Virus record (IMG/VR): IMGVR_UViG_3300017758_000001
Origin: an uncultured virus (IMG/VR IMGVR_UViG_3300017758_000001)
Taxonomy: Duplodnaviria; Heunggongvirae; Uroviricota; Caudoviricetes
Reading direction: 5' to 3' (one strand)
DNA: 64,000 nucleotides
Part shown: positions 33,094 through 61,400 of the stretch, one piece after another
How the letters are laid out: the number at the start of each line of letters is the position of its first letter
Numbering within the stretch: position 1 is the first letter of the stretch
Position numbers and translations under genes: made by a program
Notes under the pieces: generated by a model
Seen by the model: the letters and a program-made list of their open reading frames with translations, nothing else
The model's database searches: none
Told to the model about the DNA's origin: nothing

Positions 33094-33508
33094 TCTTCTC
33101 CTTTATTTCTTCGTAAATTAATGTTTTAAGTTTTGTTGTACTCCATCCATGTCCCCTATTTAAAAAGTGAATCGGGATGTCAAGATTATTACCTGTAAAT
33201 TCCTTTCCTCTATAATCATCACCTAAAAATCTAACATCAGGATTAATCTGTTCTAATAATTTTACTAAGTCTTTTTCATACGTATATATATGCACATTAC
33301 TAATATATCTAATAGACATTAGTGTTTTAAATCTTTCCTCAACAGTTAAGATCGGTTTTAATTTTTGTGGTCTTTCTATTGATGGGTCAGTGTGTAGTAA
33401 AATACTAAACTGTTCACAGACTTGACTACACTCACGGAACATTTCGATATATCCAGGATGTAGTATATCGAAATTACCTGCAATTACACCTATTTTTGGT
33501 TTACTCAT
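33086..33508 (-). CDS. TagD-like cytidylyltransferase
   Basis: GNFDILHPGY, GDDY, RGHGWSTT. Confidence 0.85.
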   Translation of the reverse strand: MSKPKIGVIAGNFDILHPGYIEMFRECSQVCEQFSILLHTDPSIERPQKLKPILTVEERFKTLMSIRYISNVHIYTYEKDLVKLLEQINPDVRFLGDDYRGKEFTGNNLDIPIHFLNRGHGWSTTKLKTLIYEEIKEKND

Positions 33509-33950
33509 CTTTTAATACGTTTGGATTTTGTTCGATCGTTTGTTTGGTGATCAAATCTTTTATTCTTGTTGTTGACCAATCATGAGATCTTGTTGTGTAT
33601 ATAACTTCGATCGGTAATTCTTTACCCGTGAAATCTTTACCTATATAGTCTTCACCTAAAATTCTAACTTGTGGTTTAAAGAACTTGATCAGTTCTAACA
33701 ATTCTTCTTCTGTTTGGTAAATGAATACTTCATCGATATATTTTATTGACATTAAGGTCTTGTACCTTTCGTATACAGGTATTACTGGTTTGTATTTACT
33801 TTTTCTGTGAAGTGATGGGTCTCTTTGTAAGAAGACTATGAACCAATCACAATGTTCCTTAGCAGTTTCAAAAGTATATATGTAACCAGGATGTATCAAG
33901 TCAAAATTACCCGCGGTAAATCCTATCTTTTTACCTTCATATCTAATCAT
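33501..33950 (-). CDS. TagD-like cytidylyltransferase (tandem paralogue)
   Basis: GNFDLIHPGY, GEDY, RSHDWSTT. Confidence 0.85.
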   Translation of the reverse strand: MIRYEGKKIGFTAGNFDLIHPGYIYTFETAKEHCDWFIVFLQRDPSLHRKSKYKPVIPVYERYKTLMSIKYIDEVFIYQTEEELLELIKFFKPQVRILGEDYIGKDFTGKELPIEVIYTTRSHDWSTTRIKDLITKQTIEQNPNVLKDE

Positions 33951-40326: not shown

Positions 40327-40917
40327 TTAAACTGGATCATTACAATTTATATAATCGAATTGTGTAATTATTCCATGATCACCCGTAACAATATACCAAC
40401 CTGGGTCTGTTCCCCACGAACCAGTATTGTAGTAAAATATTCTATTTGAGGATCCGTTACAATTTGAACCTTGGATTCCTGTTATTATTGTATCACCTAC
40501 CGCAATATTGGAACCGTGTTTCTGAATCTTATATCCCCCTGATCCATACAATGCGTTTGTTTGTTGTTGGAAATTACATATGATATTGTACATATCAGAA
40601 TATGTATAGTTTTCAGAGGTGAAATTAAACGTCGTATCGTTTTCATCCTTCCAAGCGTATTTTAAATTGATTTGCTCACCAGGACAACCCTCACATTCAC
40701 AACCATTATCACTTACTATTTTATATTTTATATTGTCATTTACTTCAGGATAATCATCAGTATTTACAATTACAGGAAATTGGTTATAATCGATACCTGC
40801 CACAACTTGAATCCAACCCGTGTATGGGTATGTGTTAGTAAAGTCACTAATATAGACATCATAAGTGGATGATCCTGATGATGGATTGTTTAAACCTATT
40901 TCAACTAAAAATGCCAT
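40327..40917 (-). CDS. Cys-containing putative virion decoration protein (196 aa)
   Basis: N-terminal beta domain ending KIVSDNGC, like its neighbours; RTATTTAT upstream. Confidence 0.65.
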   Translation of the reverse strand: MAFLVEIGLNNPSSGSSTYDVYISDFTNTYPYTGWIQVVAGIDYNQFPVIVNTDDYPEVNDNIKYKIVSDNGCECEGCPGEQINLKYAWKDENDTTFNFTSENYTYSDMYNIICNFQQQTNALYGSGGYKIQKHGSNIAVGDTIITGIQGSNCNGSSNRIFYYNTGSWGTDPGWYIVTGDHGIITQFDYINCNDPV

Positions 40918-43533: not shown

Positions 43534-45474
43534 TTATTCTTCTGTTGGAGTTGGTGTTGGTTCCACTTCTTCACTTCTTATGTTACCATTGAAACCATTA
43601 TCTTCTAAACACTCTTCACAGTCAGTGTATTCTGCATCGGATATTATTAGATTTCTAGGTTCGTTAGATGCACTCATAAGGATAAAACATCCACTAAATC
43701 CTTGGTCAGAACCATACTCTGGATTTACTCCGATTACCACACCTGCATTAAGATTTTGGTGTGGATCGTGTAACATATATGGAACTGATCCCCCATTACA
43801 TTCTCTCATAGTCCAATAGTATGGGTATAAAGTAGGGGTAGGTGTAGGTGTCGGGTCTGGTGTAAGACTATCATTACATTTTTGACAATCACCGTGGGTA
43901 TTATCAGCGTTAATCATATTGTCAGAGTCTGGTGTCCCTAATGAAGATGTAATGTAACAAACTCCGTTGTAAGATATTGATTGTAAAGGACCATAAGTCC
44001 AATTTCCTCTAAGAATATTATCAATTAGATATAAATTGACAGTTTGACCTTCACATGTCTTTAATATCCAATATCGTACTGTACTCCCCGCAGTTGGACT
44101 TGGAGCAGGTGTTGATGATGGTGTAGGGTTAGGGGTTGCGTTTGGTGTTGATGATGGTGCGGGAGTTGGGTCGGGAACTTTAGTTGGTCCAGGTGTTGGA
44201 TTAGGGGTTGCGGTTGGGTTAGGTGTAGGTGTTGGATTAGGAGTTGCATTTGGTGTTGCGTTTGGTGTTTTCGTTGGGGTTGATGCTATACTTATATCAA
44301 CATCAAAATCACAGTTTGGAGTTGATGTTGGATTAGGAGTTGCATTTGGTGTTGCATTTGGTGTCGTACTTGGACTTGGTGTTGGTGTTGGTGTAGCAAT
44401 ATCCACATCTATATCGAAATCACAATTAGGTGTTGCATTTGGTGTGGAGGTTGGGTTAGGGGTAGGTTGATTAGTAGGATTAGGAGTTGGAGTAGGCGTT
44501 GGTGTGGCAATATCTATATCTACATCAAAGTCACAATTTGGTGTTACCGAAGGACTTGGGCTAGGTGTTGGAGTCGGTTGATTAGTAGGATTAGGAGTTG
44601 CTGTTGTCATAATCGTATCAACATCGAAATCACAGTTTGGTGTTACACTCGGACTTGGAGATGGAGTTGGTGATGGTTGGTTTGTAGGATTAGGAGTTGC
44701 TGTTGTCATAATCGTATCAACATCGAAATCACAGTTTGGTGTTGCACTTGGAGACGGACTCGGTGTTGGTGTTGGAGTTGGTGCGGCAATCTCAATATCT
44801 ACATCAAAATCACAATTAGGTGTTACACTTGGAGATGGGTTAGGTGTAGGTTCAGGGTTAGGTGTAACTGTCGCTGTTGGTTCAGGGTTAGGTGATCTAG
44901 TTTCTGCAGGTGTTGTTGGACTTGGAGTAGGACCAAATCCTTGAATTGGTGTTACTGATGGACTAGGTGAAGGTGTAGGGTTAGGAGTCGCATTTGGTGT
45001 TGATGATGGTGCGGGAGTCTCAGTTGGTTGATTAGTAGGATTAGGAGTGGCTTCGTTAGTTGCGTTAGGTGTTGGTTGTGGTGTTTCTGATGCAGTTGGG
45101 TTTGGTGTAGATTGTGGAGTTGGTTGTGGTGTACCCGTAGGGTATGCAGTTGGATTAGGGGTTGAAGTTGGTCCGATTGGACACTCAGGTCCACAATCAA
45201 CCGTAATCATTTTTACTTGAAAACCACCTTGTCTTTTAGGTGTATCGTTTGGTGGTGGTGTAATATGATCGTCACAATGTTCAACGAATATATAGATTGG
45301 TCCACTGTTTATATTGTTTACTGTAAATTCGTACGGTAAGGTTTGTTCTCCTAAGAAAGTGGCACTATTAGGTATGAGATATGGGTCCCCATTGTATGTA
45401 GTTGCTGTGTATATTCCATAATCAGAACACACACCATTATCATATAAATTAGTAACTGTTAATTTTACACCCAT
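43534..45474 (-). CDS. Pro/Thr-stalk protein with six NCDFD motifs and two Cys-rich C-terminal modules (646 aa)
   Basis: Read from the translation. Confidence 0.8.
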   Translation of the reverse strand: MGVKLTVTNLYDNGVCSDYGIYTATTYNGDPYLIPNSATFLGEQTLPYEFTVNNINSGPIYIFVEHCDDHITPPPNDTPKRQGGFQVKMITVDCGPECPIGPTSTPNPTAYPTGTPQPTPQSTPNPTASETPQPTPNATNEATPNPTNQPTETPAPSSTPNATPNPTPSPSPSVTPIQGFGPTPSPTTPAETRSPNPEPTATVTPNPEPTPNPSPSVTPNCDFDVDIEIAAPTPTPTPSPSPSATPNCDFDVDTIMTTATPNPTNQPSPTPSPSPSVTPNCDFDVDTIMTTATPNPTNQPTPTPSPSPSVTPNCDFDVDIDIATPTPTPTPNPTNQPTPNPTSTPNATPNCDFDIDVDIATPTPTPSPSTTPNATPNATPNPTSTPNCDFDVDISIASTPTKTPNATPNATPNPTPTPNPTATPNPTPGPTKVPDPTPAPSSTPNATPNPTPSSTPAPSPTAGSTVRYWILKTCEGQTVNLYLIDNILRGNWTYGPLQSISYNGVCYITSSLGTPDSDNMINADNTHGDCQKCNDSLTPDPTPTPTPTLYPYYWTMRECNGGSVPYMLHDPHQNLNAGVVIGVNPEYGSDQGFSGCFILMSASNEPRNLIISDAEYTDCEECLEDNGFNGNIRSEEVEPTPTPTEE

Positions 45475-45546
45475 AAAGTATCACCTATATTGTAATAAAT
45501 ACTTTAGAATGTAGATTATATTAGATTTATAAATCTAAATTTTGAA

Positions 45547-46875
45547 TTAGTATGGATTCTGCTCGCCCTCAGTACAATCGTGAGTTCCATTATCAATACA
45601 TCGAGCGACGTTATTAATTCTAATATATACCCATGGTGTTATTGTGGTTGAGATTGAGGTACCTGTCACAGTACTCACCGCATGATATAATGGGGTGTTG
45701 CTTGTTCCAGCATTACTGACATATGGATTTCCATTCGAATCATAAATCGTAGTATTGAGTAATCCACTATAAGTCGATGCTGATGATTGAATTTCTGTAC
45801 TTATGTTGTAATCGCCATCACATAAGTCTGAGAGAGTATATGATGGTGTTGATATGTAATAAGTATACATTGTTGATGTCGCTGTTGGGGTTGGTGTAGG
45901 TGTTGGATCGGGTGTACACACACATGATGTATTAATTATAGTAATACCACTCGGTGCAGATCCTGTTTCTTGTGTTTGATATTCATAACACTTATTATCG
46001 GTTCCCCCATCGTTTATTGTTAATGTACTACCATACGCAGGTGCACTACCATATTCATCCTGTGTTAAATATATTGGTGGGTTTGATGTAGGACCACTTG
46101 ATTGAGTTGCTGTTGGTGTTGGTGTAGGATCTTCTCCTCTTATTCCTTCTTCTCCTACCTCAACGTTAAATGCGGAGGTTTCAATTGTTCCACAATACAC
46201 AAATTTCAAGTTTCTTATTTGTTCGGGTGTTGCTGATGGACTAGGTGACGGTGTGGGGTCAGGTGAAGCACATTCACAACCACCATTTATAGTTAAAGTT
46301 GTTGGGGTTCCTTGTTCTTGACTATCATATAAATAACAATATGCGTCACTCATAAAGACTCTAGTACCCGAGCTTGGATACCCACCTAGTTGGGTTTCTG
46401 TTAAATATATGCAAGTCGTAGGAGTGAAGTTCTGTGTACTCACTGAACTTGATTGATTTCCTTCTCCACCACATTGACAGAATTTATGTGTTATTTCTGA
46501 TCCACCATCGGTTTCAGTTGGTGTAGGAACAGGTGTGGAAGTTGGATTAGGGGTTGGTTGGTTAGTTGCGTTTGGTGTAGGGTTAGGAGTTGCGGTTGGT
46601 GGTTGTGTTGCGTCAGGTGCTATATTAAAGATAACTTGATTAGTACTACAGTCAGTCGCAAAATTTGGGTTATCATTTACAAAAATAAGTAATCCCGTTC
46701 CATTTGGTACGGTAACAATAACACCGTTTTGTACTTGTGAGAGTGTTAAATTAGTTGCAGGAGTTGAAGAACCATAAATGGTTGCAATATTAGATGAATT
46801 GACTTGATCATAATATATTGTGTAGGTTCCATTATCTGTCCCCCCTGTTAATGTTACTGTATAATTTAACGCCAT
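45547..46875 (-). CDS. Cys-rich, Pro/Thr-linker putative decoration protein (442 aa)
   Basis: N-terminal YTIYYDQVNSSNIAT..PATN paralogous to the 1753-aa gene; duplicated C..IYLT..CY.Y..C.C module. Confidence 0.8.
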   Translation of the reverse strand: MALNYTVTLTGGTDNGTYTIYYDQVNSSNIATIYGSSTPATNLTLSQVQNGVIVTVPNGTGLLIFVNDNPNFATDCSTNQVIFNIAPDATQPPTATPNPTPNATNQPTPNPTSTPVPTPTETDGGSEITHKFCQCGGEGNQSSSVSTQNFTPTTCIYLTETQLGGYPSSGTRVFMSDAYCYLYDSQEQGTPTTLTINGGCECASPDPTPSPSPSATPEQIRNLKFVYCGTIETSAFNVEVGEEGIRGEDPTPTPTATQSSGPTSNPPIYLTQDEYGSAPAYGSTLTINDGGTDNKCYEYQTQETGSAPSGITIINTSCVCTPDPTPTPTPTATSTMYTYYISTPSYTLSDLCDGDYNISTEIQSSASTYSGLLNTTIYDSNGNPYVSNAGTSNTPLYHAVSTVTGTSISTTITPWVYIRINNVARCIDNGTHDCTEGEQNPY

Positions 46876-46880
46876 TTAAT

Positions 46881-46950
46881 CTTTTATATTATAAATACTC
46901 TTTATATCTAATTATTTTTATTTTTATACTATAAATACTCCTTATGTTCA
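46881..46950 (-). repeat. Direct repeat with a 40-nt period carrying two GTATTTATA motifs
   Basis: ttttatattataaatactcttta vs ttttatactataaatactcctta. Confidence 0.7.
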
Positions 46951-46963
46951 ATTACTTTTTTTT

Positions 46964-48289
46964 CTATGGGATATTACATGTCTCGCAAGCTGAGGTTTTT
47001 GATTCCCCATATCTTGTTGCTGTCGGAGTTCCCGTAAAGGTATTGGGTTGTATTGTGGCACAACTTATTTGTCCTGAACATACGTCATCCCCCACATGAT
47101 AAAGAATAACATCACCTTGTTGTATGAAAGAGGCTGTAATTGCCAACACACCATCAATACAAGTTCTTGACGGATCAATAAGGTAGTCTTGTTGACTAGA
47201 ACAATCTCTAATCTTTAATAAACCACTTTGTCCTGAAGGCCCCGCTTTAGTTGATGTTGGTGTTGGTGGAGGTGGTGGTGGTGATCCTGCACAATTTCCT
47301 GGTAGTAATGTTACAGGTTCCATATTGTTTGGATTACTATATATCCATGAATTACTTCTAACACATCTAGGTGGTTGTACACAATCCCCACCAGGTACCG
47401 ATAGATTATATGTGATACCATCACATCCTTCATATTGTACTTCAGAACCTGCGGTCCCTTCCTTTGAACAAAATTCTATATCAACACAGGTTTCTGTTGC
47501 TGTTGGGGTTGGTGTAGGTGATGGTGGAGGTGTGTTTGTGGGAAGTGGTGTTGTACTTGGTGATGGGGTTTGACATTGACCATCAATACAATCCCCATTT
47601 ATACTATAATTCAGTTTAGCGTCTGATACTGTTATATTGTTACCGTTACCACACACACTTTCTGTTGCATTTGACCCCACAGTTATGGTTTGTGGTTCTC
47701 CACTACAATCATCGTAATATCCGATTCTATTTCCACTAGATGCATTTGTGAACTCAATACATACACATGGACCAATAGTTGCACTTGGTGTGGGGTTAGG
47801 TGTTGCGTTAGGTGTTGGATTAGGTGTGGCTTCGTTAGTTGGATTAGGTGTTGGATTAGGGGTTGGTTGGTTAGTTGCGTTTGGTGTAGGGTTAGGTGTA
47901 GCTTCGTTAGTTGGAATAGGTGTTGGATTAGGGGTTGCGTTTGGTGTTGGGTTAGGAGTTGCAGTTGGTACAGGTGTTGGCTGTGGTTGTTGTTGTCCGT
48001 AAGGGACAAACGACACACACAACTCACAGTTTACTCGTGGTACAGGTACCTTAACAATTTCGTCGTGACAACCATCTGAAGAGAATCTTACAAAAAGAAA
48101 AGGGTGTTCCCCATTGACAATGTTTAAATCACTATCCTCAACTTCAAACTCAACAGGTCCTGATGTTATATTAGCATAGACAAGTTCTGTTGTGGTTCCA
48201 CTTGTTGTTCCACTATACAGACTAACAGGAAAATCACTCAAACTGTGAGTATTATCTAAACTTAAATCTATTCTAACTTTTCTTGCCAT
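46964..48289 (-). CDS. Cys-rich, Pro/Thr-linker putative decoration protein (441 aa)
   Basis: PNPT repeats; two C.G..C modules; C-terminal 6-Cys domain. Confidence 0.8.
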   Translation of the reverse strand: MARKVRIDLSLDNTHSLSDFPVSLYSGTTSGTTTELVYANITSGPVEFEVEDSDLNIVNGEHPFLFVRFSSDGCHDEIVKVPVPRVNCELCVSFVPYGQQQPQPTPVPTATPNPTPNATPNPTPIPTNEATPNPTPNATNQPTPNPTPNPTNEATPNPTPNATPNPTPSATIGPCVCIEFTNASSGNRIGYYDDCSGEPQTITVGSNATESVCGNGNNITVSDAKLNYSINGDCIDGQCQTPSPSTTPLPTNTPPPSPTPTPTATETCVDIEFCSKEGTAGSEVQYEGCDGITYNLSVPGGDCVQPPRCVRSNSWIYSNPNNMEPVTLLPGNCAGSPPPPPPTPTSTKAGPSGQSGLLKIRDCSSQQDYLIDPSRTCIDGVLAITASFIQQGDVILYHVGDDVCSGQISCATIQPNTFTGTPTATRYGESKTSACETCNIP

Positions 48290-48307
48290 TTTTTATAAGT
48301 TCAACGT

Positions 48308-49495
48308 TTATTGAACGGGTGTAAAATCTTCGGTTATTTTTTCAGGGATTTGAGATGCTCCATATACCGTGATTGGTATATCGTCTACCAATGTCAAAGT
48401 ATAAGGTGAGGTATCCGTTATTTGGTAAACCTTACCATTAGAATTAACTATGTATATATTTGACCCATATTCGAATATCCCATAAGGTTCTGGTATGTCT
48501 GCGGTTATGTCTAAATCCATCTCCACGTTTCCAGTGGTATAATCATACTGAGTAATGTGACTGCTAACGTGTGGATTAAATGTTCTGTTTGTGACAATTA
48601 ATTTATTTGTTGTGGTATACATATAGTCCCCCGCAACCACTCTTCCCGAAAGCATCGACCATTTAAGTGTTGCGGAAGCAACATTAGTCGTTATATCTAT
48701 CTCATAAACATCATATCCACTAATATTTATTAATGTGGTGTCATTAATTGCACATAAACCAGCATTCGTAAATACTGACGTTATAGTTCTGTTGAAGGTT
48801 TGAGAGAAAGGATTTAACGTTATATTGTATTCTAACAATGAAGCGGCTTGTGCATCATATACCCATATCTTATTTCTTGTGTTTGCAATATCGCTTGAAT
48901 TGTAAGTCGAATCAAATAAATATGTTAATGCCGTAGTACTAGGGTTATATGAGTAAATCGACGTAGTCGGGTATCCCGAATCATTTAAAAATACGTCAAT
49001 GTCTGACACAACTATTTCATAAGTAACAAACGAGACTCCTATCTCACAATCTGTTTCAGAGTTATCATCCAAACACTCATAGTCCACCTCAAATTTAATT
49101 TTATCATAACACTCAAAAGTTTTACTATCACTGATATATATACTTTCAATAATATGTCTTAATTCACTACCATTAATACAAGGACTCGTTTCACAATTAT
49201 CAATAACATTAAGAGTATCCTGTAATTTAATAAAATATCTTGTATCAAATTCTAAAGGACTATAAACAAAACAGGTTGATCCTGATATTGGTGGATCATT
49301 GTTTGTTATACATATTGGGTCTGTCCTATAATTTCTATGTGTTAATGATGTAGTCCCAGATGTTGATGGTAACCATTCACCATTTGGGTCTTCTGAGTTT
49401 GTAATTTGGGTAAATGATCCATAAGGTGATAACCCAATGTTCAATTTGAACTTATTAGGTGACACGATATCATATAATCTTACTACTAATCCCAT
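48308..49495 (-). CDS. Putative decoration protein with a C-terminal beta-propeller-like region (395 aa)
   Basis: DCEIGVSF linker; repeated four-strand blade-like pattern. Confidence 0.65.
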   Translation of the reverse strand: MGLVVRLYDIVSPNKFKLNIGLSPYGSFTQITNSEDPNGEWLPSTSGTTSLTHRNYRTDPICITNNDPPISGSTCFVYSPLEFDTRYFIKLQDTLNVIDNCETSPCINGSELRHIIESIYISDSKTFECYDKIKFEVDYECLDDNSETDCEIGVSFVTYEIVVSDIDVFLNDSGYPTTSIYSYNPSTTALTYLFDSTYNSSDIANTRNKIWVYDAQAASLLEYNITLNPFSQTFNRTITSVFTNAGLCAINDTTLINISGYDVYEIDITTNVASATLKWSMLSGRVVAGDYMYTTTNKLIVTNRTFNPHVSSHITQYDYTTGNVEMDLDITADIPEPYGIFEYGSNIYIVNSNGKVYQITDTSPYTLTLVDDIPITVYGASQIPEKITEDFTPVQ

Positions 49496-49523
49496 ATGTT
49501 TATAAATACTTTAGAATAGAAAT

Positions 49524-49552
49524 AAAAAAACCCGTTATTAAACGGGTTTTTT
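49524..49552. terminator. Bidirectional-type intrinsic terminator
   Basis: AAAAAAACCCGTT-ATTA-AACGGGTTTTTT. Confidence 0.85.
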
Positions 49553-49573
49553 AAAATATGGTTAGTTAACCTA

Positions 49574-50131
49574 TTATTCCATACACTCGGTGTTGGTACA
49601 TCCTTTTTGTTTGTTAAGAATACCATCGAGGGATAATAAAGCGGTAACTTCTTGAGATACGTCAACTTGTTTAATTTCACCACAATATGTCGCTCCTACT
49701 TCACCATTACATGATGACGCCGCGTAGAATTGTACAAATTCACCTTCTATGAAGATTGAATTATCTACAGGTAGGGTAGTATTACTACCGTCACAAATAA
49801 CAAGGTCTGACGCGTAATATGTTGCATTATCAACACATCTTTCTATTTCAAAAATCTTTGCAGTATTACCAGGGTTTTCTCCTCCTGAACATGCTTGACC
49901 TGTCCAAGGGACTTGATTGGTACATGTACCTGTTGATGTTATTGTACCTCCCGATATTGTATCGTCTACTTGGTATGTGACACCGTTAATTAAATTTGCA
50001 AGTGCAACTCCCGTCGCTATCGTTGTTGGTGCAGGACTACCATTACAGTGATTTCCAATGATTGTGAAAGTATCTGCCTGTGTGGTATTTGCGTAACCTG
50101 CGCTTAATGTAAATGTTACTGAATATGCCAT
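49574..50131 (-). CDS. Two-domain Cys-rich protein (N-terminal beta domain + 6-Cys domain, 185 aa)
   Basis: C-terminal half aligns by eye with the C-termini of the 1753-aa and 441-aa proteins. Confidence 0.75.
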   Translation of the reverse strand: MAYSVTFTLSAGYANTTQADTFTIIGNHCNGSPAPTTIATGVALANLINGVTYQVDDTISGGTITSTGTCTNQVPWTGQACSGGENPGNTAKIFEIERCVDNATYYASDLVICDGSNTTLPVDNSIFIEGEFVQFYAASSCNGEVGATYCGEIKQVDVSQEVTALLSLDGILNKQKGCTNTECME

Positions 50132-50196
50132 AGTATTGTTTTTTTAAATTCTTTATTAATAAATATCATACTTTTTAAAAAAAGTTAATTATTTCT

Positions 50197-53100
50197 TTAC
50201 TCGAAACAATTGAAGTTGCTACAATTCTCTAAATCTTGGTCCATAGTTATAACCGCATTTATAGTCTCTGTAACATCTAAGTCCTGAATAGTTCCACAAA
50301 ATGTAGATGCTTCGGATGAACATGGGGTCTGTATCATCTGTACAACATCACCTAAACTCCATGATCCACCATTTGATAGTATCACTTCTAAACCATTTTC
50401 GCATCCATTGTGAGAATGAACATAATATGTACCACCACCAGGTAAACATGACGCAACTTTCATTGTGGTCCCAATACCACCACCTTCATCTAGTGCGAAT
50501 GTACTTTTTACCGATGTAGTTGCGGTACAACCATTTGCGTCGGTTACAATTACATAGTAATACCCCGCGGATAGATTTGAGAATGTTTGAGATGGGTTAG
50601 CGGACGTAACAGGTTCGATTGTTGCAACTAATGTTCCTCCACTATTTGTATATGGAGATGCAGTATCTTCATATAATCTATATATTTTATTCCATGTACC
50701 CCCACTTGAAGTTACTGTTATGGATCCATTTGATCCCGTAGTAAAAGATGTAATTGTTACAGTTCCCGCTGTTGGTTCATACACTGTACGACTATAATCT
50801 TTAGTACATCCACTTCCATCTTTAATTGTTATTGTATAAGTTCCAGCACTTAATGAATTATAATCATATGGGAATGTTGATGACCATAACCCAGCATCTA
50901 ATCTATGTTGGTAGGTAGCACCATTACCATTAATTGGACTTGCAACATTTATTGATCCATCTGATCCTCCATTACATGAAACATCTACAGGTGTAAATGT
51001 TGCCGATGGATTTGTTTTGAATATTGATACAGTCCCTGTCTCAATACATTTATTATCATCTTTAATTTTTAATAAGTAATTACCCTCACCTAAACTACTA
51101 AACGTATTAGATGATTGATAATTGGTTCCGTTATCTTTTGAATATTCATAACTACCCGAACCACCCGTAGCGTTGATTACGATTTGACCATCTGTGGATG
51201 CCTGACATGTTGGGTGAGTTAGTGTGGTAGTAAATGTTAAATCTGTGGGTTGTGTGATTGTCTTTGTATATGATCTTGTACATCCACTTCCATCTTTTAC
51301 CGTTACCGTGTATGATCCTGCCGCCAATGATGAGTATGTTTTAGGGAATGTCGTCGTGTAAGAACCAATATCCAATTTAACACTATAAGTCCCTCCATTT
51401 CCACCTGTTGGTGATGATACTGTTATTGAACCTGTACTTGCTCCGTAACATGCAACATTAGATTGAGTTACTGTAGCACTTACGGCACCCTTACTTAATG
51501 TTACTGATCTTGATGAGGTACAACCATTTGCGTCGGTTACAATTAATGTGTACGTACCTTCACCCAAACCTGTATGTGCTAAATCTGTTGTCGAATCACC
51601 ATTTAATGTGTAAGTTTTTTCACCTGTACCACCACTTACAGTAAATGTAATTGACCCATCTGTACCTCCATCACAAGTTGGGTCTGTATGACTATCCCCA
51701 ATACTAAGTGCACTTGGTTGTGTAATAGTAACTGAGTATGATGTTGTACATCCATCACCATCTTTTACTGTTATTGTATGTGTACCTGCAGAGACAGAAT
51801 AGGTTTTTGATGTTCCGATGTTACTATAACTACCACTATTCAACTTAGATTGGTATGTCCCTCCGTTTCCACCTGTTGGTGAAGATACTACTATTGAACC
51901 CGCACCTCCATTACAAAGTGGATTTGTTGAACTTATTGTTGCAGTAACCTGTGATTTACTTAATGTCACTGATACTGTATCAACACAGTTACTTTCATCT
52001 TTCGCATATAATGTATAAGAACCAACACTCAATGATGTGAATGTTCCTGAAGAAAAATATTGAGTACCATTAATAGAATATTGTTTAGTACCCGTACCTC
52101 CCGTAGCTCCCACTGTTATACTACCATCACTACTGTAATTACACGTTGGATGTGTAACAGAACTTGAAGTTACATTAACCGCTGTTGGTTGTGTAATAGT
52201 AATACTATATGATCTTGTACAACCATCACCATCTTTTACTGTTATGGTGTTAACCCCCGCAGCCAAACTTGAGTATGTCTTAGGGAACGTCGTTGTGTAA
52301 GAACCACTGTTTAGTTTTACACTATAAGTCCCTCCATTTCCACCTGTTGGTGATGATACTGTGATAGATCCGTTTGTTCCCTTATTACATGTAACATTAG
52401 ATTGTGTTACTGTTGCGGAGACCTGAGTTTTGGATAAAGTCACTGAAGTTGAATCAACACATCCATTACCGTCTTTAACATAGACTGTATAGGTTCCATT
52501 TCCTAAACTTGTGAAAGTATTTGAGGTTTGGTAAGATCCACTACCTATTTTATAGGTATACGATCCTGTACCACCACTACCCGTAACTGTTATAGTACCA
52601 TCAGTATCATCGTAACAACTTGGGTTCGTTGATGATGCACTAGCGGTAACCGTATTGTTTTCAGTAATTGTTTTATTCTGAACTCTTTCACAACCATCAC
52701 TATCTTTAATATAGATATAATAAGTATCTGGTGCTAAATCCTCATACAGTTTAGTACCTGTTAGGTTAACATAAGTTCCATCTGAAGAGTTGTTAGTTGT
52801 GTTAATTTTAACTTGATATGTGGCTCCCGACCCACCTGTTGGGTTAGAAACTGATATTGATCCGTTATCATCACCATTACACACCACATTTGTAGTTGTA
52901 ATAGTTGCAGATGGTGATGTGGTAGATAAATTAACATACCCAAAACTTGAAACACATCCATTACCGTCTCTTACTCTTACACTATGACTACCTCCAGTTA
53001 AATTTGTTTTTACGTTTGATGTGTACCAAAAACCATCAAACTGATATTCATAAGATCCGTTACCTCCTGAGGCGGAAACAGTGATACTACCGTCATTACC

Positions 53101-55458
53101 ATTCCAACATGTTGGGTCAACATGTGTTTCTGTGAATGTTACGGGTTGTGGTTCTGTAATTGTTATATTGTAGGTTCTTTCACATGAAGATGAGTCCTTA
53201 AGATATACTATGTATGTATCAGGATCAAGACTTTCGTATAACACATAAGTTGTTAGGTTACTCCAATTATGTAGTAATGTTCCGTCATCACGTGTCATTT
53301 TGACTTGGTATGTGGCTCCCGATCCTCCTGATGGTGAGGTTACATTAATCCAACCATTATCATTACCGTTACATGTTATATTTGATTGTGTTACTGTTGC
53401 GGATACTTGTGTTACACTTAGAGTAACCGTTCTAGTATCAGTACATCCATTTTCATCCGTTGCAATTAGAGTATAAGAACCCGCAGTCAAATTTTCATGA
53501 AGTAAATCTGTTGTTACATCACCATTTAAAGTATATGTTATTTCACCTGTACCACCAACAACACTAAATTGGATTTCACCATCACTCCCACCATAACATG
53601 TTGGATCTGTATGTGAATCAGTTATATTGAGTACGGGTGGTTGTAATATTCCTAATGTAAATGTTCCAACCTCACCATTACTATCTTTGACATAAATTGT
53701 ATAATTACCCGCGGCCAAACCTGTAAATGAAGTGGACGTTTGATAATTGGTACCATTTATAGAATAAGTGTAAGGTGAATCACCTCCTGTTTGAGAATTA
53801 ACTGTAATACTACCTGTGGAATCATTGTAACAAAGTAAGTGTGTCACACTAGCAGTACCTGAAACAGATATATTTGTTATTGATATTGTCAATTTTTTTT
53901 CAAAGTACAGACCTCCTTGGTCAGTTGACCTAACTCTTATAGAATAACTTGACTGTGTTTCATAATCAAATACTTCATCACTCTTTAGTGTTGTACCATC
54001 AATATCAAAACTACTATTTCCTGTGTCTCCCGTACCACTTACTAAAGTATATGTAAACGTATTATTAGTATCAGGATCTTGAGAACTAAATGTACCTATT
54101 GCGGTTCCTGATGCCACATTTTCATCGATTGACGAATTTGATAAAGTGAGATTAGTGGGTGTTTCATTAACATCAAGTACTGAAATTGTAAATGTGTCAG
54201 TATATGTATTATTACCACTATCAGTAACTGTTACTTCAATACTGTAAGAGTTTTTAACCTCATAGTTAAAAACAATTGCGTTTTCAAGTACCCCTGCACT
54301 TGATAAACTAAATGATGTATTGTCATTAACAGTACCTGTAAGTGCATATGTGAATGTTTCACCACTATCTACATCTAAACCTGAAAAAGTACCTATAGTC
54401 GTACCTATTGCAGTATTTTCATTTTGTGTATTATTACTTAATGTAAGACCATAAGGTGTTTCATTTATATTAAGAACACTTACGGTCCTTGTGTCCTCAA
54501 AAGTTAATCCATCTTGGTCAGTGACTCTTATTCTTATAGAATAACTTGATTTAGTTTCATAATTGAATACAATTGCATTTTTGAGTACTCCCGCACTTGA
54601 TAATGTAAATGATGCGTTATCAGTACTTCCTATACCACTCACTAAACTAAATGTGTGTGAATCACCCGAATCAGGATCTCCCGCGACTAATGTGGCAATA
54701 GTTGTTGATGTTGCCGTATTTTCAGATTGAGTTAATAGTGTAGGTGTAAAACCTGTAGGTGCCCTGTTTATATCAATATCCACATCAAAATCACAATTTG
54801 GTGTTGGACTTGGAGTTGGACTAGGACTAGGTGATGGAGATGGTGTAGGAGTTGGGCTTGGTGTATTTGTCGGGCTTGGACTTGGTGATGGGCTAGGTGA
54901 TGGTGATGGTGTTGGAGTTGGTGATGCAGTAGGATTAGGTGTAGGATTAGGTGTAGGATTAGGTGTTGCACTTGGTGATGGGCTAGGTGATGGTGAAGGA
55001 GACGGTGATGGACTTGGTGATGGTGATGGTGTAGGAGTTGGTGTAGCAATATCTACATCAACATCAAAGTCACAATTAGGTGTTGGACTCGGTGATGGTG
55101 AAGGAGATGGTGATGGGCTAGGACTTGGGCTCGGAGACGGAGATGGACTCGGGCTCGGAGATGGACTAGGACTTGGTGTTGGTGTTGGTGTAGAAGTTGG
55201 GATTGGTGTTGGTAAAATAATCTCATCATCTATTACACATGAGTTATTGTATAGTAATATAGTTGTTGCACTATATGGTACTTCAACTCTTACACCATTT
55301 TCTCTAATAAGATCAGAATATGTTACATTTGTTGCGGGTAAATTAGTTGATACTCTTGTCGCAATATTAGATGCATTAATTTGGTCATAGTATATAATAT
55401 ATGTACTATGGGAAGTTCCCGAACTTATTCTTACATCAAAATATCTTACTTGAGCCAT
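50197..55458 (-). CDS. Giant adhesin-like protein: PS/PT stalk, 3 cadherin-like repeats, 13-14 SprB-like repeats, 6-Cys tip (1753 aa)
   Basis: Cadherin hallmarks (EN, DxD, FNYE/FDYE, DVNETP); SprB-like [28 protein letters not shown]. Confidence 0.88.
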
Positions 55459-55495
55459 TATTAAAATATATAGTTTATTTTTTCAATTTTATAGT

Positions 55496-58400
55496 TTATC
55501 CTTCTTCAAAATTTTCAGTTACCTCACCTTCAAAACTACAGTCACATAGTATCCACACTCTTTCTACTTGAGTTAACACGTTATTCCATTCAACAATAAT
55601 TGCAATTGCTTTGTTATCTGTATCGATATATCTTATTCCTGTATCAAACAGTCTATTAGTTCCTATTGGTGTTAAAGTACCTTCAGTATGATCAAATGAA
55701 CTTACCTCAGTTCCTACAGGTATAACATGTTCACCAATACATGAACTACCAACACCACCTGAATATGTTCTATAATAAACAACACAATCATCTATATTGT
55801 AAACCCATTCTTTTCCGTCAGTTGATCTAACTATGTCACCTTCACGGGTTTCATTACAGTACCCACCTAAATCTTTTATTGAACTTACATTAGGTGTACT
55901 ACCTGTTGGTACATAAGAGTTCTTATAGATTTGTGTACCACAATCTGGTGGACAATCTACTGCCGTTGGACTCGGAGTTGGGCTTGGTGTCGGAGATGGA
56001 CTCGGACTTGGGCTTGGACTCGGAGACGGTGAAGGACTCGGTGTTGGTGTTGGAGTCTCAGTTGGTCTTGGTGTTGTACTTGGTGATGGCGATGGGCTCG
56101 GACTTGGTGTTGGTGTTGGTGTAGCAATATCTACGTCCACATCAAAATCACAGTTTGGTGTAGGACTTGGTGAAGGAGATGGGCTTGGACTTGGTGATGG
56201 ACTTGGCGTAGGCGTTGGAGAACTACTCGGACTCGGAGAAGGACTCGGAGATGGAGTTGGACTTGCTGTTGGGTCAGGTGTTAAACTCGGAGTAGGTGAA
56301 GGACTCGGAGATGGGCTAGGTGATGGTGATGGGCTAGGTGTTGGTGTTGGAGTCGCAATATCTACATCAACATCAAAATCACAATTAGGTGTTACACTTG
56401 GAGAAGGTGACGGAGATGGTGATGGTGATGGGCTAGGTGTTGGAGTTGGACTTGGTGTTGGTGAAGCCGTAGCATTTGGTGTTATACTTGGTGTTGGTGA
56501 AGCAGTGGGATCAGGTGTCTCAGTCGGTCTTGGAGTATCACTTGGTGTAGGTGAAGGGCTCGGTGATGGACTAGGTGATGGAGATGGTGTAGGAGTTGGA
56601 GTCGCAATATCTACATCAACATCAAAATCACAATTAGGTGTTACACTTGGTGATGGCGATGGGCTCGGACTTGGTGTTGGTGATGATGTAGGGTTAGGTG
56701 TTGGTTGTGGAGTCACACTCGGTGATGGACTAGGTGATGGTGAAGGACTCGGACTTGGTGTTGGTGTTGGAGTCGCAATGTCCACATCAATATCGAAATC
56801 ACAGTTTGGTGTTACACTTGGTGATGGACTTGGGCTTGGTGTTGGTGATGATGTAGGGTTAGGCGTAGCATTTGGTGTTACACTTGGACTTGGTGATGGA
56901 CTTGGGCTTGGTGATGGGTTAGGTGTAGCATTTGGTGTTACACTTGGTGATGGACTTGGACTTGGTGTTGGTGATGATGTTGGATCAGGTGTAGGTGTTG
57001 GTGTAGCAATATCTACATCAATATCGAAATCACAGTTTGGTGTTACCGATGGTGAAGGGCTCGGTGAAGGACTTGGACTTGGCGACGGACTTGGTGAAGG
57101 AGATGGGCTTGGACTTGGAGTCGGACTAGGTGATGATGTTGGAGACGGTGAAGGACTCGGTGTTGGTGTTGGTGTGGCAATATCTATGTCTACGTCGAAA
57201 TCACAATTAGGTGTCGCTGATGGGCTTGGGCTTGGCGACGGAGAAGGTGATGGTGTAGGAGTTGGGTTTTGTGTTGAAGGTGGTGTAACTGTTGCTTCAG
57301 GTGTTGGTGCGGGTGTTGCACTAAATGTAGGACTTGGTGAAATACTCGGTGTTGGAGTCGGTGTTGCAATGTCCACATCCACATCAAAGTCACAATTTGG
57401 TGTTGATGAAGGACTTGGGCTTGGTGATGGGCTAGGTGATGGTGTTGGTGTTGGTAATCCTGTCTGTGTTGGCGACGGAGAAGGTGATGGTGATGGGCTA
57501 GGACTAGGTGATGGAGATGGTGTAGGAGTTGGTGTTGCTATATCTACATCAATATCGAAATCACAGTTTGGTGTCGCTGAAGGGCTTGGTGAAGGTGTAG
57601 GTGATGCAGAAGGGTTAGGTGTAGCATTTGGTGTTACACTTGGAGACGGACTCGGTGTTGGAGTTGGAGTTGGTGCGGCAATATCTATGTCTACGTCGAA
57701 ATCACAATTAGGTGTTACACTTGGTGAAGGACTAGGTGAAGGACTCGGACTTGGTGTAGGAGTTGGTGTAGCAATATCTACATCAATATCGAAATCACAG
57801 TTTGGTGTTACCGATGGTGAGGGTGATGGGCTAGGTGATGGGCTCGGACTTGGTGTTGGTGTTGGTAATCCTGTCTGTGTTGGTGAAGGAGTTTGACTCG
57901 AAGTTGGTTGTGGAGTCTCAGTTGGTAAAGCCGTTATTGAGGGTGTTGGTGTTGGAGTTGCAATATCCACATCCACATCAAAATCACAGTTTGGTGACGG
58001 TGATGGGCTCGGTGATGGCGATGGTGATGGTGTAGGAGTTGGTAATCCTGTCTGTGTTGGCGACGGAGATGGGTTAGGTGAAGGTGTAGGAGTTGGAGTT
58101 GCAATATCTACATCAACATCGAAGTCACAATTTGGTGTTACACTTGGTGATGGAGATGGTGTAGGAGTTGGTGATGGACTTGGGCTTGGGCTTGGAGTGG
58201 GTGTTGGTGTGGCAATATCCACATCAATATCGAAATCACAGTTTGGTGTTGCACTTGGAGATGGAGATGGAGAAGGTGTTGGAGTTGGTGCGGCAATCTC
58301 AATATCTACATCAAAATCACAATTAGGTGTTACACTTGGACTTGGTGATGGGCTGGGTGATGGTGTTGGTACAGGTGTTGTTGTAGGATCAGGTGTTGGT

Positions 58401-61400
58401 GATGATGTAGGATCAGGTGTGGAAGTTGGTCCAGCAATATCTACATCCACATCAAAGTCACAATTTGGTGTTGGACTTGGAGTTGGACTAGGACTTGCTG
58501 ATGGGTCGGGAGCTTTAGTTGATCCAGGTGTTGGTGTTGGTGAAGCAGTGGGATCAGGTGTTGATGATGCTGTAGGGACAGGAGTCTCTGTTGGTGTAGG
58601 GACAGGTGTAGAAGTTGGGTTAGGTGTGGAAGTTGGGTTAGGTGTAGGGTCAGGAGTACTACTCGCAGTAGGATTAGGTGTAACTGTCGCTGTTGGTTCT
58701 GGTGTACCAGTTAATGTTGGTAAAGGTGTGGGGTTAGGACTTGCATTTGGTGTGGTACTTGGTGTGGGGTTAGGAGTCTCTGTTGGTAATGGAGTCTCAG
58801 TACCAGTTAAAGTTGGTGTTGGTGCAGGTGTTGCTGTAGGTTCTGCGGTAGCAGTAGGTGTTATCGTATCTGTACATATACCTAATATACTATGAGTTAT
58901 TTGTTCTGAATATGTTACTGACTTTATTTCATAACAGTCTTTACCAGGTGATAAGTACTCACCTGATTGTTGACCTTGTATCGGTTCAAGTTGTACTATT
59001 TCACCTATACTGTAGGAATTATCATATAAAATAAAAAGTTCATCTCCGTCGGTGTAGTGTTCACCTATGAAGGCATTTAGATCTTTACATTCAGTTTCGT
59101 AGATTGGTCTTTTTAAATCTTCGACTTCGGGTGCATCCACACAATCTATTTGATCTTGATAGTATTGTTGGGAACTTAAGTCTAAATTTTCGAATAATTG
59201 TTCATTATATTCAACCAATACTTGATCATCTCCGTCACCATTAAATAAGATTACGTCGGTACAACAATCTGTAGATATGTTTGTTACATCATTTGGTATT
59301 CCATTTGTAACTGTACTTGGAGCATTAAAGACTGCAGTAACATTTAAATGATAAAATAAATCTCTTTGACAATAATCTAAATCTAAGGAAGTAACCTCAA
59401 TAGGAAACCCTAATTCATTTATTAGTAAATCACCTTTACTATAATAATCCACTCCATAATTACAACATGGTTCTACGGGATCAGGTGGTCTAACTGTTAA
59501 CTCCTCAGGATATTTTTCGGTAAACTCCCAATGGTCACCAACCTTAGTCATCACTCTTAATTTAGAGTTAGGTAAAACCTTAAATCTGTCGTTAATTACG
59601 TTAACTTTAGTAGACCCTAAACAATCTTTATTATCTACCTCAACAGTCAAGTAAGTATAACTAAATGAATACCCACTTAATACCGAATTTGTAAAATCAC
59701 TTGAACTAAATGGACAGTCTAAATATTGTCCTGATAGTAACCTATCACCTATGGTTACATCCTCAACGTCGATTAACTCTAAGGTATTATCTGCAAAGTA
59801 ATTTTGTACATCAACCCATGTATTCTCATCATCTATGATAATACCATTATTGACTTTGATTACTTTAGTATTTTGTTTTAAACCATAATCAAATGTTTGT
59901 CTATACTGAACAGTAGGATGTATTGTGTATCCCGAAAAATTATCACAGAACGTTATCCCACTAATAATATTCGCGGGATCATGTGTTGGATATTCCTCCC
60001 CCTCCAAATAACTGTCAATTTGGTATTGGAAGAAGTGACTTCTCGATGTTGTTACATCATCACCATCTACGGGGTCCCACTCAAATTTTTGTTGTAGTCC
60101 GTCTATTCTTACTTTTTGATCACAGTTTGCAGCATCGGTTATTGTAATATCAATAACATCGTATTCTCTTACATTTCTTACTACAAAAGTACATCCTGAT
60201 ACCCATTCTACTGTTTGGTCACTTTGAAGAGTAGTGTTTCCTGAAATGGATTCGTTATACCCACCAACACAATTTATAAAGATATTGGTCGGCCAAGTAG
60301 TATTATATGGAGGACAATCAGTACATGCGTCACCATCATCAATAATATCTTCATTACCAAATGTTATTCCCGAAACCTCGAAAAATACGTCTTCTACCAA
60401 ACAACAGTTGTCTTCGTCTTCAGGTAAAGTGTACATAGTATCAGGACCATAAACATTTACTTGTGGGTTACAACATGTTGTACCTGTTAAATAAGACGTA
60501 TCAAAATAAAAGTCAAATGTGTCACCATCTAAACATTCAATGTTAGCTTCAGTTGTACATGTATTGTCCGTATATAATGGAACATCATATTTAATTGGGA
60601 TTACACTTATCTTTTTAATCCCATCGACATCCGTAAATATTTTATATGTTAATATTGGTGTTACTTCACAAGAATAGGATTCACCATTTGTTTGTAATTC
60701 ACTTAAATAGTTTGTCTCTGTTTGTGTGTTCCCACTTAATTGGTAATCAACCCAACCCGCATGATTGCTAATATCTCCACCATATGTTCCATCACTATAA
60801 AATGTTTTTCTATAATATTGGTTATTAATTTGGTTATCTATGATATTTTGTACTTCATCAATCCAAAGACATTCTAGTATCTCTCTTTGTGGTTTCAAAT
60901 GACATTTAAAATCACATGTTAGTGGTAAATGAATTGTTTTATTAAATGGTACTCCATCAAAATCTGAACTCAGTAATGTTGAACATTCAGAATTTACAGG
61001 GTATGGGTCAAATAAACCCGCGTGTGTGTAGTTACCACTACAAACATCTACCGTCTGAATATTTTGTGTCTCACCACTTAAACTCAATAGGTTATTTGCA
61101 CTATACGTTGTTCCATTAAAATCAATATGTAATGAATATGTTACCCCACTAACCACAGTCAGACCTCTGAATACATCAGGATCACCTAAAACTGTCTCTA
61201 AATCTTCTTCAATTGCCAATTCAAAATCAGGGAAAAGGTTTTCTGTAAACTCAGTAATTCTACACGGTTTCTTATATTGGTATTTTGATCTACCTAAATT
61301 ATGATTTTCGATGATATTACCACCCGTCCATAATGTTGTTGCAGGAATGAACTGTTCAATTAATTGTACCCAATAAGGACTTATTTTATTAATAAATTCA

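What the first reader, a model, noticed from the sequence alone, without database searches (positions are those of the whole stretch)
43534..58865. Mucin-like Pro/Ser/Thr stalks punctuated by 23 copies of a Cys-led acidic beta-strand motif, shared by three virion genes
Seen: NCDFD[VI]D (usually continuing [VI]DIA) occurs 15 times in the 2697-aa wedge-like protein, twice in the 1753-aa adhesin and 6 times in the 646-aa protein. Copies are separated by variable-length (PS/PT)n spacers; the peptide is conserved while codons vary. Related Cys-led alternating strands occur in neighbours (DCEVDLD, DCRIGVSF, NCELVLIGS, DCEIGVSF, NCELCVSF). Inference: each motif is too short to fold alone. It may zip with copies from the same or other proteins (beta-strand addition, inter-chain disulfides, Ca2+ on the Asp face), forming a cross-linked, extensible brush anchored at the baseplate. 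I do not recognise this motif as a described phage structural element.
Basis: partly seen in the sequence, partly recalled or inferred. Interest (0 to 1): 0.85.

Follow-up and report, generated by a model that had tools for sequence, protein, structure and literature searches.

The report
Plug-and-socket scaffold on phage tail
A marine phage repeats a short cysteine-led peptide 23 times along stiff-looking stalks, and each copy looks like the missing first strand of a small domain that begins the neighbouring adhesion proteins, so these proteins probably plug onto the tail base to build a branched appendage; binding itself is predicted, not measured.

Summary
In detail: 23 copies (15+2+6), about 1e-5 expected by chance. 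The motif is most likely not a self-zipping, Ca2+-bridged brush. It looks like a donor strand: the missing strand A of an FN3/Ig-like domain that starts the neighbouring genes. Evidence: 146 of 149 relatives of that domain sit at the extreme N-terminus; 148 keep one invariant Cys; all four internal copies found are directly preceded by a Cys-led strand. A fusion fragment folds at pLDDT 91 with the strand completing an FN3-like sandwich. One neighbour is Pfam fn3 lacking profile positions 1-14. The two-chain prediction gave only weak support (0.33; best control 0.02). The acidic face is not conserved in relatives. Spacer lengths are quantised (19 of 20 are 3 or 7 mod 10), which suggests phased rods, not floppy linkers. 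Binding in trans, the disulfide lock, virion location and the wedge label are inferred. Donor-strand complementation is known from pili; I found no paper describing it as a multi-site phage scaffold. This scan reached the same idea on another genome (e1-5653845, later marked 'part of it fell'; I could not see which part).

The parts
56135..58465 (-). 15 donor strands (P-N-C-D-F-D-[VI]-D-[VI]-D-I) on a Pro/Ser/Thr stalk, residues 1709-2485 of the 2697-aa protein; spacing 27-83 aa, widening toward the C-terminus
61300..63589 (-). Conserved N-terminal body of the 2697-aa protein, probable baseplate wedge subunit (anchor of the stalk); label not confirmed by a family hit
   Evidence: Atlas feature hit PF23786 Baseplate_wedge, 0.92, 57% of members; orthologue is the sixth ORF after gp6 in G005; no significant Pfam, PHROG or PDB hit
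55520..55543 (-). Variant Cys-led strand (DCSFEGEV) at the C-terminus of the 2697-aa protein
55210..55458 (-). Acceptor domain (six strands, no strand A, lone Cys74) at the start of the 1753-aa adhesin
54778..55077 (-). Two donor strands of the 1753-aa adhesin, 93 aa apart
   Evidence: first copy modelled as a docked strand
50197..54770 (-). Payload of the 1753-aa adhesin: 3 cadherin-like domains and 12 SprB repeats
49901..50131 (-). Acceptor domain of the 185-aa protein (no donor of its own)
49028..49495 (-). N-terminal beta domain of the 395-aa protein (acceptor status not shown) followed by two variant Cys strands (49085-49111, 49028-49051)
48008..48289 (-). Acceptor-like domain of the 441-aa protein (weak profile match, Cys at the same place by eye) directly followed by the variant strand NCELCVSF
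   Evidence: probability 21%, E 0.001
46615..46875 (-). Acceptor domain of the 442-aa protein (no donor of its own)
44296..44817 (-). Six donor strands of the 646-aa protein, a second scaffold; its own N-terminal domain (45190-45474) is not shown to be an acceptor
43261..43524 (-). FN3 domain lacking strand A at the start of the 864-aa protein, followed at once by the variant strand DCRIGVSF; five more variant strands lie further on (42607-42627; four within 41269-41445)
   Evidence: Pfam fn3 32.5 bits (cut-off 25), profile positions 15-74 of 84 from residue 3
40687..40917 (-). N-terminal domain of the 196-aa protein, member of a second N-terminal-only family with an invariant Cys
40038..40262 (-). 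Acceptor domain of the 466-aa protein (BNR-like payload, no donor of its own)

Best explanation
The Cys-led peptide is a donor strand. The genes after the probable baseplate wedge begin with a six-stranded FN3/Ig-like domain that lacks strand A and usually carries one unpaired Cys just before its last strand. A donor inserts its Phe/Val/Ile face into the open groove and completes the fold; its Cys then probably forms a disulfide with the acceptor's Cys once the virion is in oxygenated water. The 2697-aa protein is thus a baseplate-anchored scaffold with 15 sites; the 1753-aa and 646-aa proteins carry further sites, which allows a second tier of branches bearing exchangeable adhesion payloads. 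The Pro/Ser/Thr spacers act as semi-rigid rods of selected length. Shown by computation: the strand and the domain are two parts of one fold. Inferred: binding in trans, the disulfide, virion location, which acceptor takes which donor, and the function in host or particle attachment.
For: (1) Profile search: 593 representatives at E<=1e-3, best 150 examined; one spurious repeat protein dropped; 146 of 149 domains start within 8 residues of the N-terminus, 148 of 149 keep the Cys, 135 of 149 have only that Cys. (2) All 3 internal copies among them, and a fourth found next, are directly preceded by a Cys-led strand, Cys 26-31 residues before the first conserved acceptor motif. Each fusion occurs full-length in 2-4 cluster members and the four need 4 changes on a quick tree, at least 3 forced by strong branches. 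Split orthologues carry the strand in the upstream gene (3 of 3 read). (3) AlphaFold2: fusion fragment pLDDT 91.4, pTM 0.85, motif forms the first strand; window protein 1-143 docks the motif as a strand at pLDDT 81 between linkers below 50. (4) Paired fold searches: of 7 entries in both top-50 lists, 6 extend 15-20 residues N-terminally when the strand is included (e.g. FN3 1cfb 627-708, Z 4.0, 69 aligned, rmsd 3.1 becomes 610-708, Z 6.1, 85 aligned, rmsd 3.2); chains at Z>=5 rise from 1 to 130. (5) The 864-aa neighbour is Pfam fn3 above cut-off but lacks profile positions 1-14; 9 of 9 accessory ORFs have an in-frame stop 0-8 codons upstream, so strand A is not lost by a wrong start call. (6) Two-chain prediction, weak support: 0.33 against best of 3 controls 0.02; runs share at least 89% of contacts, partner pLDDT at least 55. 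The mark was reached by 116 of 157 solved and 2 of 215 mismatched pairs, but at 0.60 or under by only 18 of the solved and both mismatches. (7) Donors and acceptors lie in one cluster in a complete 336-kb relative and a 248-kb contig. (8) The wedge-like protein has donors and no acceptor, while the 185-, 442- and 466-aa proteins have acceptors and no donor, which requires pairing in trans.
Against: No experiment; no cultured relative. The complex pass is in the range that the tool calls more often wrong than right unless the guess was likely beforehand, and halves of a split domain can pass by likeness to solved folds. All fold-search Z values are below 8, and the two models compared are of different homologues. 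The window model is in cis, so the 1753-aa protein could fill its own groove. No coordinates were returned, so Cys-Cys distance was not measured. Only 4 of 9 accessory ORFs clearly belong to the main acceptor family, and these four seeded it; the 395-, 646- and 864-aa domains do not match it; the 864-aa FN3 has no Cys at the matching place. The second N-terminal family gave no fusion in 120 of 120 proteins examined. The tree is the quick one and three changes can be one gain and two losses. The wedge label has no family hit. An earlier report of this idea was marked 'part of it fell'.
Confidence: 0.68

Rival explanations
1. One reading: motifs zip with one another (in-register or cross-chain beta-sheet, Cys-Cys ladders, Ca2+ on Asp) to stiffen or cross-link the stalks; the N-terminal domains anchor elsewhere.
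For: High copy number, homogenised within each genome: best identity between wedge and accessory strands 7.7 of 9 against 4.3 in permutations, 0 of 10000 as high, though kinship confounds this. Quantised and widening spacers could be loops of a stacked spine. Ca2+ reinforces donor-strand contacts in archaeal cannulae (PMC12518558, abstract).
Against: Acidic face not conserved; single-copy strands occur; this model does not explain the four fusions, the missing strand A or the lone acceptor Cys. Homo-oligomers of the motif were not modelled.
Confidence: 0.1
2. The strand does complete the domain, but mostly in cis or as a temporary chaperone-like filler; the real anchor of the accessory proteins is a strand of a core virion protein (capsid, sheath, baseplate), and the extra copies on the wedge stalk are spare or bind only one partner type.
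For: AlphaFold2 docks the strand in cis over a 44-residue linker. Relatives with a short, stalk-less wedge-like protein still have acceptors. Only 13 of 149 acceptor-bearing proteins carry a recognisable donor, so most donors are unaccounted for without genome context.
Against: Up to 22 copies on a protein with no acceptor, kept under purifying selection; in stalk-less relatives Cys-led strands sit on neighbouring accessory genes.
Confidence: 0.15
3. The motif is a host- or particle-binding peptide, a metal or redox site, or a by-product of repeat expansion, and the fusions are chance deletions.
For: Pro/Thr tracts are prone to recombination; copy number varies from about 3 to 22 among relatives.
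Against: Synonymous over non-synonymous excess; four fusions all with short loops although about 150 residues of upstream gene were available as junction; structural complementarity.
Confidence: 0.07

Closest known systems
Donor-strand complementation in chaperone-usher pili, CPR Pam pili (PMC13278184, passages) and archaeal cannulae (PMC12518558, abstract)
   Same: An incomplete beta-sandwich is completed by a strand from another chain; cannulae do so without a chaperone.
   Different: Here the missing strand is the first one (A), not the last (G, recalled for chaperone-usher pilins); donors are internal and repeated up to about 20 times on one chain, giving a branched scaffold and not a linear filament; each donor carries a Cys; it is a virion structure.
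Branched receptor-binding systems of phages G7C, CBA120, phiK64-1 and phiKp24 (PMC9700779, passages)
   Same: A primary baseplate-attached protein offers docking sites for secondary and tertiary adhesins with short N-terminal attachment domains.
   Different: Those dock through folded T4 gp10-like domains; 'donor' and 'disulfide' do not occur in that paper. Here the site is a ten-residue strand on a Pro/Ser/Thr stalk and the payloads are Ig-like, propeller or LRR modules.
Bacillus endospore appendages S-ENA/L-ENA (PMC11362473, passages)
   Same: Short Cys-bearing connector peptides dock on another subunit and are locked by intermolecular disulfides.
   Different: Jelly-roll subunits with complete folds, joined by sheet augmentation into a helical fibre; one connector per subunit.
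Cellulosome scaffoldin (cohesin-dockerin) and SpyTag/SpyCatcher (both recalled; SpyCatcher appeared only as a weak fold match, Z 4.2)
   Same: Many equivalent sites on Pro/Thr linkers recruit a family of proteins that share one docking module; peptide completes a split Ig-like fold with a covalent lock.
   Different: No cohesin or dockerin family hit; SpyTag is engineered and uses an isopeptide bond.

Membership tests
Any curated repeat or domain family (for the motif itself) | Pfam or PHROG model matches the motif-bearing stalks | tested here: not met
   No Pfam family for the 2697- and 646-aa proteins at E<=0.01; only a low-complexity unnamed PHROG on the 646-aa stalk
Fibronectin type III (PF00041) | Sequence match above the curated cut-off | tested here: met
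   864-aa protein and one orthologue: 32.5 and 36.2 bits, cut-off 25, profile positions 15-74 of 84 only
Fibronectin type III (PF00041) | Sequence match for the main acceptor family | tested here: not met
   0 of 20 members hit fn3 at E<=1; profile gave one weak PDB hit to fibronectin, E 0.0097
FN3/Ig-like fold | Seven-stranded sandwich once the strand is included | tested here: inconclusive
   Best Z 6.4 (87 aligned, rmsd 3.3), list dominated by FN3/Ig domains, none at Z>=8; Foldseek no match at E<=0.001
SprB repeat (PF13573) | Acceptor domain homologous to SprB repeats | tested here: inconclusive
   hhalign probability 7% or less; the 1753-aa payload itself has 12 SprB repeats
Chaperone-usher pili | Pilin lacks the last strand and is completed by a single N-terminal extension | tested here: not met
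   The missing strand is the first; donors are internal and multi-copy
Chaperone-usher pili | Chaperone and usher genes | tested here: inconclusive
   None among 39 window ORFs scanned; the window is only part of the genome
Donor-strand complementation (mechanism) | Strand from one chain completes the fold of another chain | tested here: inconclusive
   Fusions and models support it; two-chain prediction weak, 0.33 against 0.02
Donor-strand complementation (mechanism) | Measured binding and intermolecular disulfide | not testable with these tools
   Needs purified proteins or virions
T4 gp10-like branched tailspike systems | gp10-like docking domains on the primary fibre | tested here: inconclusive
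   No such family on the 2697-, 1753- or 646-aa proteins; the C-terminus of the 864-aa protein hits phrog_677 'baseplate wedge tail fiber protein connector' (E 8.5e-12) where Pfam sees a cupredoxin-like domain
Cellulosome | Cohesin and dockerin domains | tested here: not met
   No such Pfam hit in 39 ORFs
Baseplate wedge subunit (2697-aa protein) | Family or structure match; position in baseplate operon | tested here: inconclusive
   Atlas lead 0.92 to a cluster 57% PF23786; sixth ORF after gp6 in G005; no significant Pfam, PHROG or PDB hit

The most novel reading that the evidence does not exclude
A large family of uncultured aquatic T4-like phages builds a cellulosome-like, hierarchically branched appendage: each baseplate stalk, over 200 nm long if polyproline-II, carries up to about 20 helically phased donor strands, each completing and covalently locking a strand-A-less FN3-like socket that bears an exchangeable adhesin. 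This would be a natural, chaperone-free, disulfide-locked peptide-tag system and a new way to assemble virion appendages.
Probability: 0.45. Interest if true: 0.88.

Novelty: new variant of a known kind. Interest (0 to 1): 0.74.

Why it matters
It gives a testable function to two unannotated N-terminal domain families with hundreds of members and to a repeat found across a widespread clade of large aquatic phages that probably infect Bacteroidota. It would extend donor-strand complementation from linear pili to a multi-site virion scaffold and explain how these phages swap and multiply adhesins. The parts are small (an 83-residue domain and an 11-residue peptide), so the claim can be settled with two purified components; a natural peptide-domain pair with a disulfide lock would also interest protein engineers. 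The quantised spacer lengths point to a structural rule for Pro/Ser/Thr linkers that are usually treated as featureless.

Tried and rejected
No whole genome is held for the window. No cultured relative: tblastn of the wedge-like body, an acceptor and P0126 against 50,697 phage records gave nothing but one E 0.2 piece. The Atlas gave no usable hit for the acceptor. Foldseek gave no match at E<=0.001 in PDB or BFVD; the best viral rows were unnamed 77-aa proteins. Homology of the acceptor to SprB repeats was not shown. No fusion was found for the second acceptor family (0 of 120) or for the 395-, 441-, 646- and 864-aa N-terminal domains among proteins held (one search found only 2 close relatives). 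An Erv1/Alr sulfhydryl oxidase was not found in 4 records, but the control rang nowhere, so this says nothing. The one RNA run laid gave scattered short pieces and cannot show expression; a 2043-base in-frame skip in one DNA run has 31 letters fitting either side and is treated as an assembly-graph jump. P0049 was dropped from the counts as a spurious repeat hit. The careful tree did not finish; the quick tree was used. Whether the phage belongs to the bS21 phages or moraphages was not tested; neither paper mentions SprB or cadherin in its main text. Literature: eight full-text searches returned no phage donor-strand scaffold; 'donor strand' with 'bacteriophage tail' and 'receptor-binding protein' returned 0 papers. 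The library lacks most subscription papers, and I read no supplements, so absence from print is not proven.
Full report
OBSERVATION. The count is exact: 23 copies of NCDFD[VI]D, 15 in the 2697-aa ORF, 2 in the 1753-aa ORF and 6 in the 646-aa ORF, all in coding frames on the minus strand; about 9e-6 are expected from composition. The copies give 18 DNA versions and 6 peptides, with 3.2 synonymous against 1.5 non-synonymous codon differences per pair. Spacers are 79-93% Pro/Ser/Thr. No Pfam family covers the 2697- or 646-aa proteins; the 1753-aa protein carries 3 cadherin-like domains and 12 SprB repeats.

CONTEXT. The window is part of a large phage (primase, SbcCD, ClpP, sigma factor) found in marine DNA runs of several studies. 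The motif pattern hit 14 stretches on 8 viral contigs; the body of the 2697-aa protein found 29 loci. In a complete 336-kb relative (G005) the orthologue is the sixth ORF after baseplate gp6, in a genome with T4-like terminase, capsid, sheath and tube genes. Its wedge label rests on that position and on an Atlas lead (PF23786, 0.92); family and PDB searches gave no significant hit. Among 185,579 prokaryote genomes the pattern occurred on one contig, binned as Flavobacteriaceae, that carries the same gene cluster. A Bacteroidota host is therefore inferred, not shown.

WHAT IS CONSERVED. Across 922 ORFs from fetched loci a relaxed donor pattern in Pro/Thr/Ser context matched 388 times (117 distinct) against a shuffled mean of 9.2; putting another residue in place of Cys gave 2-18 matches (Thr 93). 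Cys, an aromatic two places later and alternating hydrophobics persist; the acidic face does not (CNFSVNVNVI, CNFTIEYTALI, CDFAIQYVVN, CDFTVQVNYI). Within a phage the wedge-like protein and the next accessory gene share the variant (7.7 of 9 identical against 4.3 permuted, 12 phages, kinship not corrected). This argues against Ca2+ bridging as the core role.

THE PARTNER. Nine ORFs follow the wedge-like gene. Four (1753, 185, 442, 466 aa) begin with one family of about 80-residue domains with an invariant Cys. A profile found 593 representatives; of the best 150, one was a spurious repeat; 146 of the other 149 have the domain at the extreme N-terminus, 148 keep the Cys and 135 have no other Cys in the domain. 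The three internal copies, and a fourth found next, are each directly preceded by a Cys-led strand (DCTFSATV, DCSFDISV, DCTFSGSV, DCEFSANT) and a short loop. In three split orthologous loci read in full, the upstream gene carries the same strand followed by a Pro/Thr stalk and the downstream gene starts with the domain. The fusions are full-length in 2 to 4 cluster members each and need 4 changes on a quick tree of 48 rows, at least 3 forced by strong branches; one gain with later losses is not excluded. A fifth neighbour (864 aa) starts with a Pfam fn3 domain above cut-off that matches profile positions 15-74 of 84 from residue 3. All 9 ORFs have an in-frame stop within 8 codons upstream, so the first strand is truly absent. 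The 196-aa ORF belongs to a second family: 120 of 120 examined are N-terminal, 119 with an odd number of Cys, with payloads such as delta-60 repeats and BspA-type repeats, and no fusion found; it relates weakly to the first family (probability 75%, 28 columns). The 441-aa domain matches weakly; the 395- and 646-aa domains do not match.

STRUCTURE. AlphaFold2 folds the fusion fragment at pLDDT 91.4, pTM 0.85, with the motif as first strand. For residues 1-143 of the window's adhesin it builds six strands and places the motif as a further strand at pLDDT 81 between linkers below 50. Seven PDB entries occur in both top-50 lists; in six the alignment extends 15-20 residues toward the target's N-terminus when the strand is included (1cfb 627 to 610, 2dru 116 to 100, 1ccz 106 to 90, 5lsp 670 to 650, 8pmu 295 to 280, 4b9i 31 to 13; Z from about 4 to about 6); the seventh switched domain. 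Chains at Z>=5 rose from 1 to 130, none reached 8, and the two models are of different homologues. The two-chain prediction of acceptor plus wedge peptide gave weak support: 0.33 against a best control of 0.02, contacts at least 89% shared between runs, partner pLDDT at least 55; the mark was reached by 116 of 157 solved and 2 of 215 mismatched pairs, but at 0.60 or under by only 18 solved pairs and both mismatches, and split-domain halves can pass by likeness. No coordinates were returned. That the start of strand A lies near the start of strand G in FN3 domains, which would bring the two Cys together, is recalled knowledge.

MECHANISM. Most likely each strand fills the groove of an acceptor on another chain. 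Pairing in trans is inferred because the wedge-like protein has donors and no acceptor while three neighbours have acceptors and no donor; the 1753-aa protein could also close on itself. Donors and acceptors share one cluster: in G005 donors were in 3 of 419 ORFs (7 in the wedge-like protein, 1 in an accessory gene, 1 stray) and both acceptor hits were in the cluster; in the 248-kb contig all 21 donors and all 6 domain hits were in the cluster. The disulfide is inferred from two lone, conserved Cys; it would form after lysis or with help from a thiol oxidoreductase (thioredoxin-like ORFs by eye in both relatives; the Erv1 search was uninformative). With six wedges, assumed from T4-type symmetry, the stalks alone would offer 90 sites.

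SPACERS. Motif-to-motif distances widen toward the C-terminus (Spearman 0.79-0.96, p<0.001, in 5 of 8 stalks; also noted in e1-6089540) and are quantised: 19 of 20 in the window are 3 or 7 mod 10 (p about 3e-6 after allowing for choice of classes; 9 of 10 distinct lengths, p about 0.02), and 6 of 7 distinct lengths in two distant relatives follow the same rule (p 0.02). Over 260 distinct units, Ser-rich ones peak at period 3.31 (R 0.65, alias 5.06, null 99th percentile 0.31) and Thr-rich ones at 3.10 (R 0.45, alias 0.31, null 0.22). Units are related, so these p values overstate. Peptide runs of up to 12 Pro-Ser are coded with at most 3 perfect hexamer copies. A polyproline-II-like rod with phased sites fits; duplication in 10-residue blocks is not excluded.

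COMPARISON AND NOVELTY. It works like donor-strand complementation (PMC13278184, passages; PMC12518558, abstract) with a Cys lock as in endospore appendages (PMC11362473, passages), and serves the role of branched tail-fibre systems that use T4 gp10-like docking domains (PMC9700779, passages). It is a member of none of these by the tests listed. PMC12619734 (abstract, passages) and PMC9723584 (abstract, passages, section 7) describe large aquatic Bacteroidota phages without this module in their main text; membership of those clades was not tested. PMC13419713 was held only as a stub. Eight searches found no phage donor-strand scaffold; supplements were not read. I formed this reading before looking up earlier notes. 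The scan had reached it on another genome (e1-5653845, marked 'part of it fell', part not shown); two other notes read the strand as a stalk element without a docking role. These notes are not independent support.

VERDICT. Real, conserved and probably undescribed. That strand and domain are halves of one fold: about 0.8. That they pair in trans as a virion scaffold: about 0.68. Disulfide lock: about 0.55. Class: new variant of a known kind. Interest 0.74.

Noticed in passing
window 56135-58465, 44296-44817; L062, L067, L014, L037: Motif spacings are quantised (3 or 7 mod 10 in the window's clade; about period 3.1-3.2 in a Thr-rich clade) and widen toward the tip; codons in the Pro-Ser runs are scrambled so that perfect DNA repeats are short.
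   Followed up: partly
window 40930-41262 (-): The 864-aa protein ends in a cupredoxin-like domain (Pfam Copper-bind, 22.1 bits, cut-off 21.2) that also hits phrog_677; a possible copper-binding payload on a virion appendage.
   Followed up: no
L044:17198-17410, L045:17238-17450, L055:4936-5154, L072:6590-6820, L074:6624-6842: Stand-alone 71-77-aa proteins made only of the second acceptor-type domain, with no payload; possible caps for empty sites.
   Followed up: partly
L062:2003-9985, L067:4205-9511: In distant relatives the spacers are built from T-x-I-T-P-T hexamers with Thr at every second position, a pattern that could form beta structure and not a disordered linker.
   Followed up: no
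L004:10501-18474, L010:5495-13651, L004:2475-3608, L014:15413-16585: A von Willebrand A-like domain (by eye, F-D-x-S-G-S-M motif) moves between the tip of the wedge-like protein and an accessory protein in relatives.
   Followed up: no
G005:C1:238248-241565: A 1106-aa Pro/Thr-rich protein about 36 kb from the cluster starts with a domain that looks by eye like another strand-A-less acceptor; it did not match the profiles.
   Followed up: no
L044:2036-7740, L045:2177-7758, L072:509-6577: A related clade has a short (about 1000 aa) stalk-less wedge-like protein followed by a gene that starts with a Cys-led strand (M-[SA]-C-x-L-x-Y-x-x-S-I-T-G-D-C), possibly a reversed joint.
   Followed up: no
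L077-L080 (G002 contig 1, 248 kb): A contig carrying this phage gene cluster is binned into a Flavobacteriaceae metagenome-assembled genome; probably a phage contig and a hint at the host.
   Followed up: partly
window 16099-16608, 27859-28563, 33086-33950 (-): Host-like genes: NusG, ClpP and two adjacent cytidylyltransferase-like genes.
   Followed up: no
window 56505-57896 and 58197-58895 (+): Long Gly/Val-rich open frames on the opposite strand are shadows of the Pro/Ser/Thr repeat, most likely not genes.
   Followed up: no
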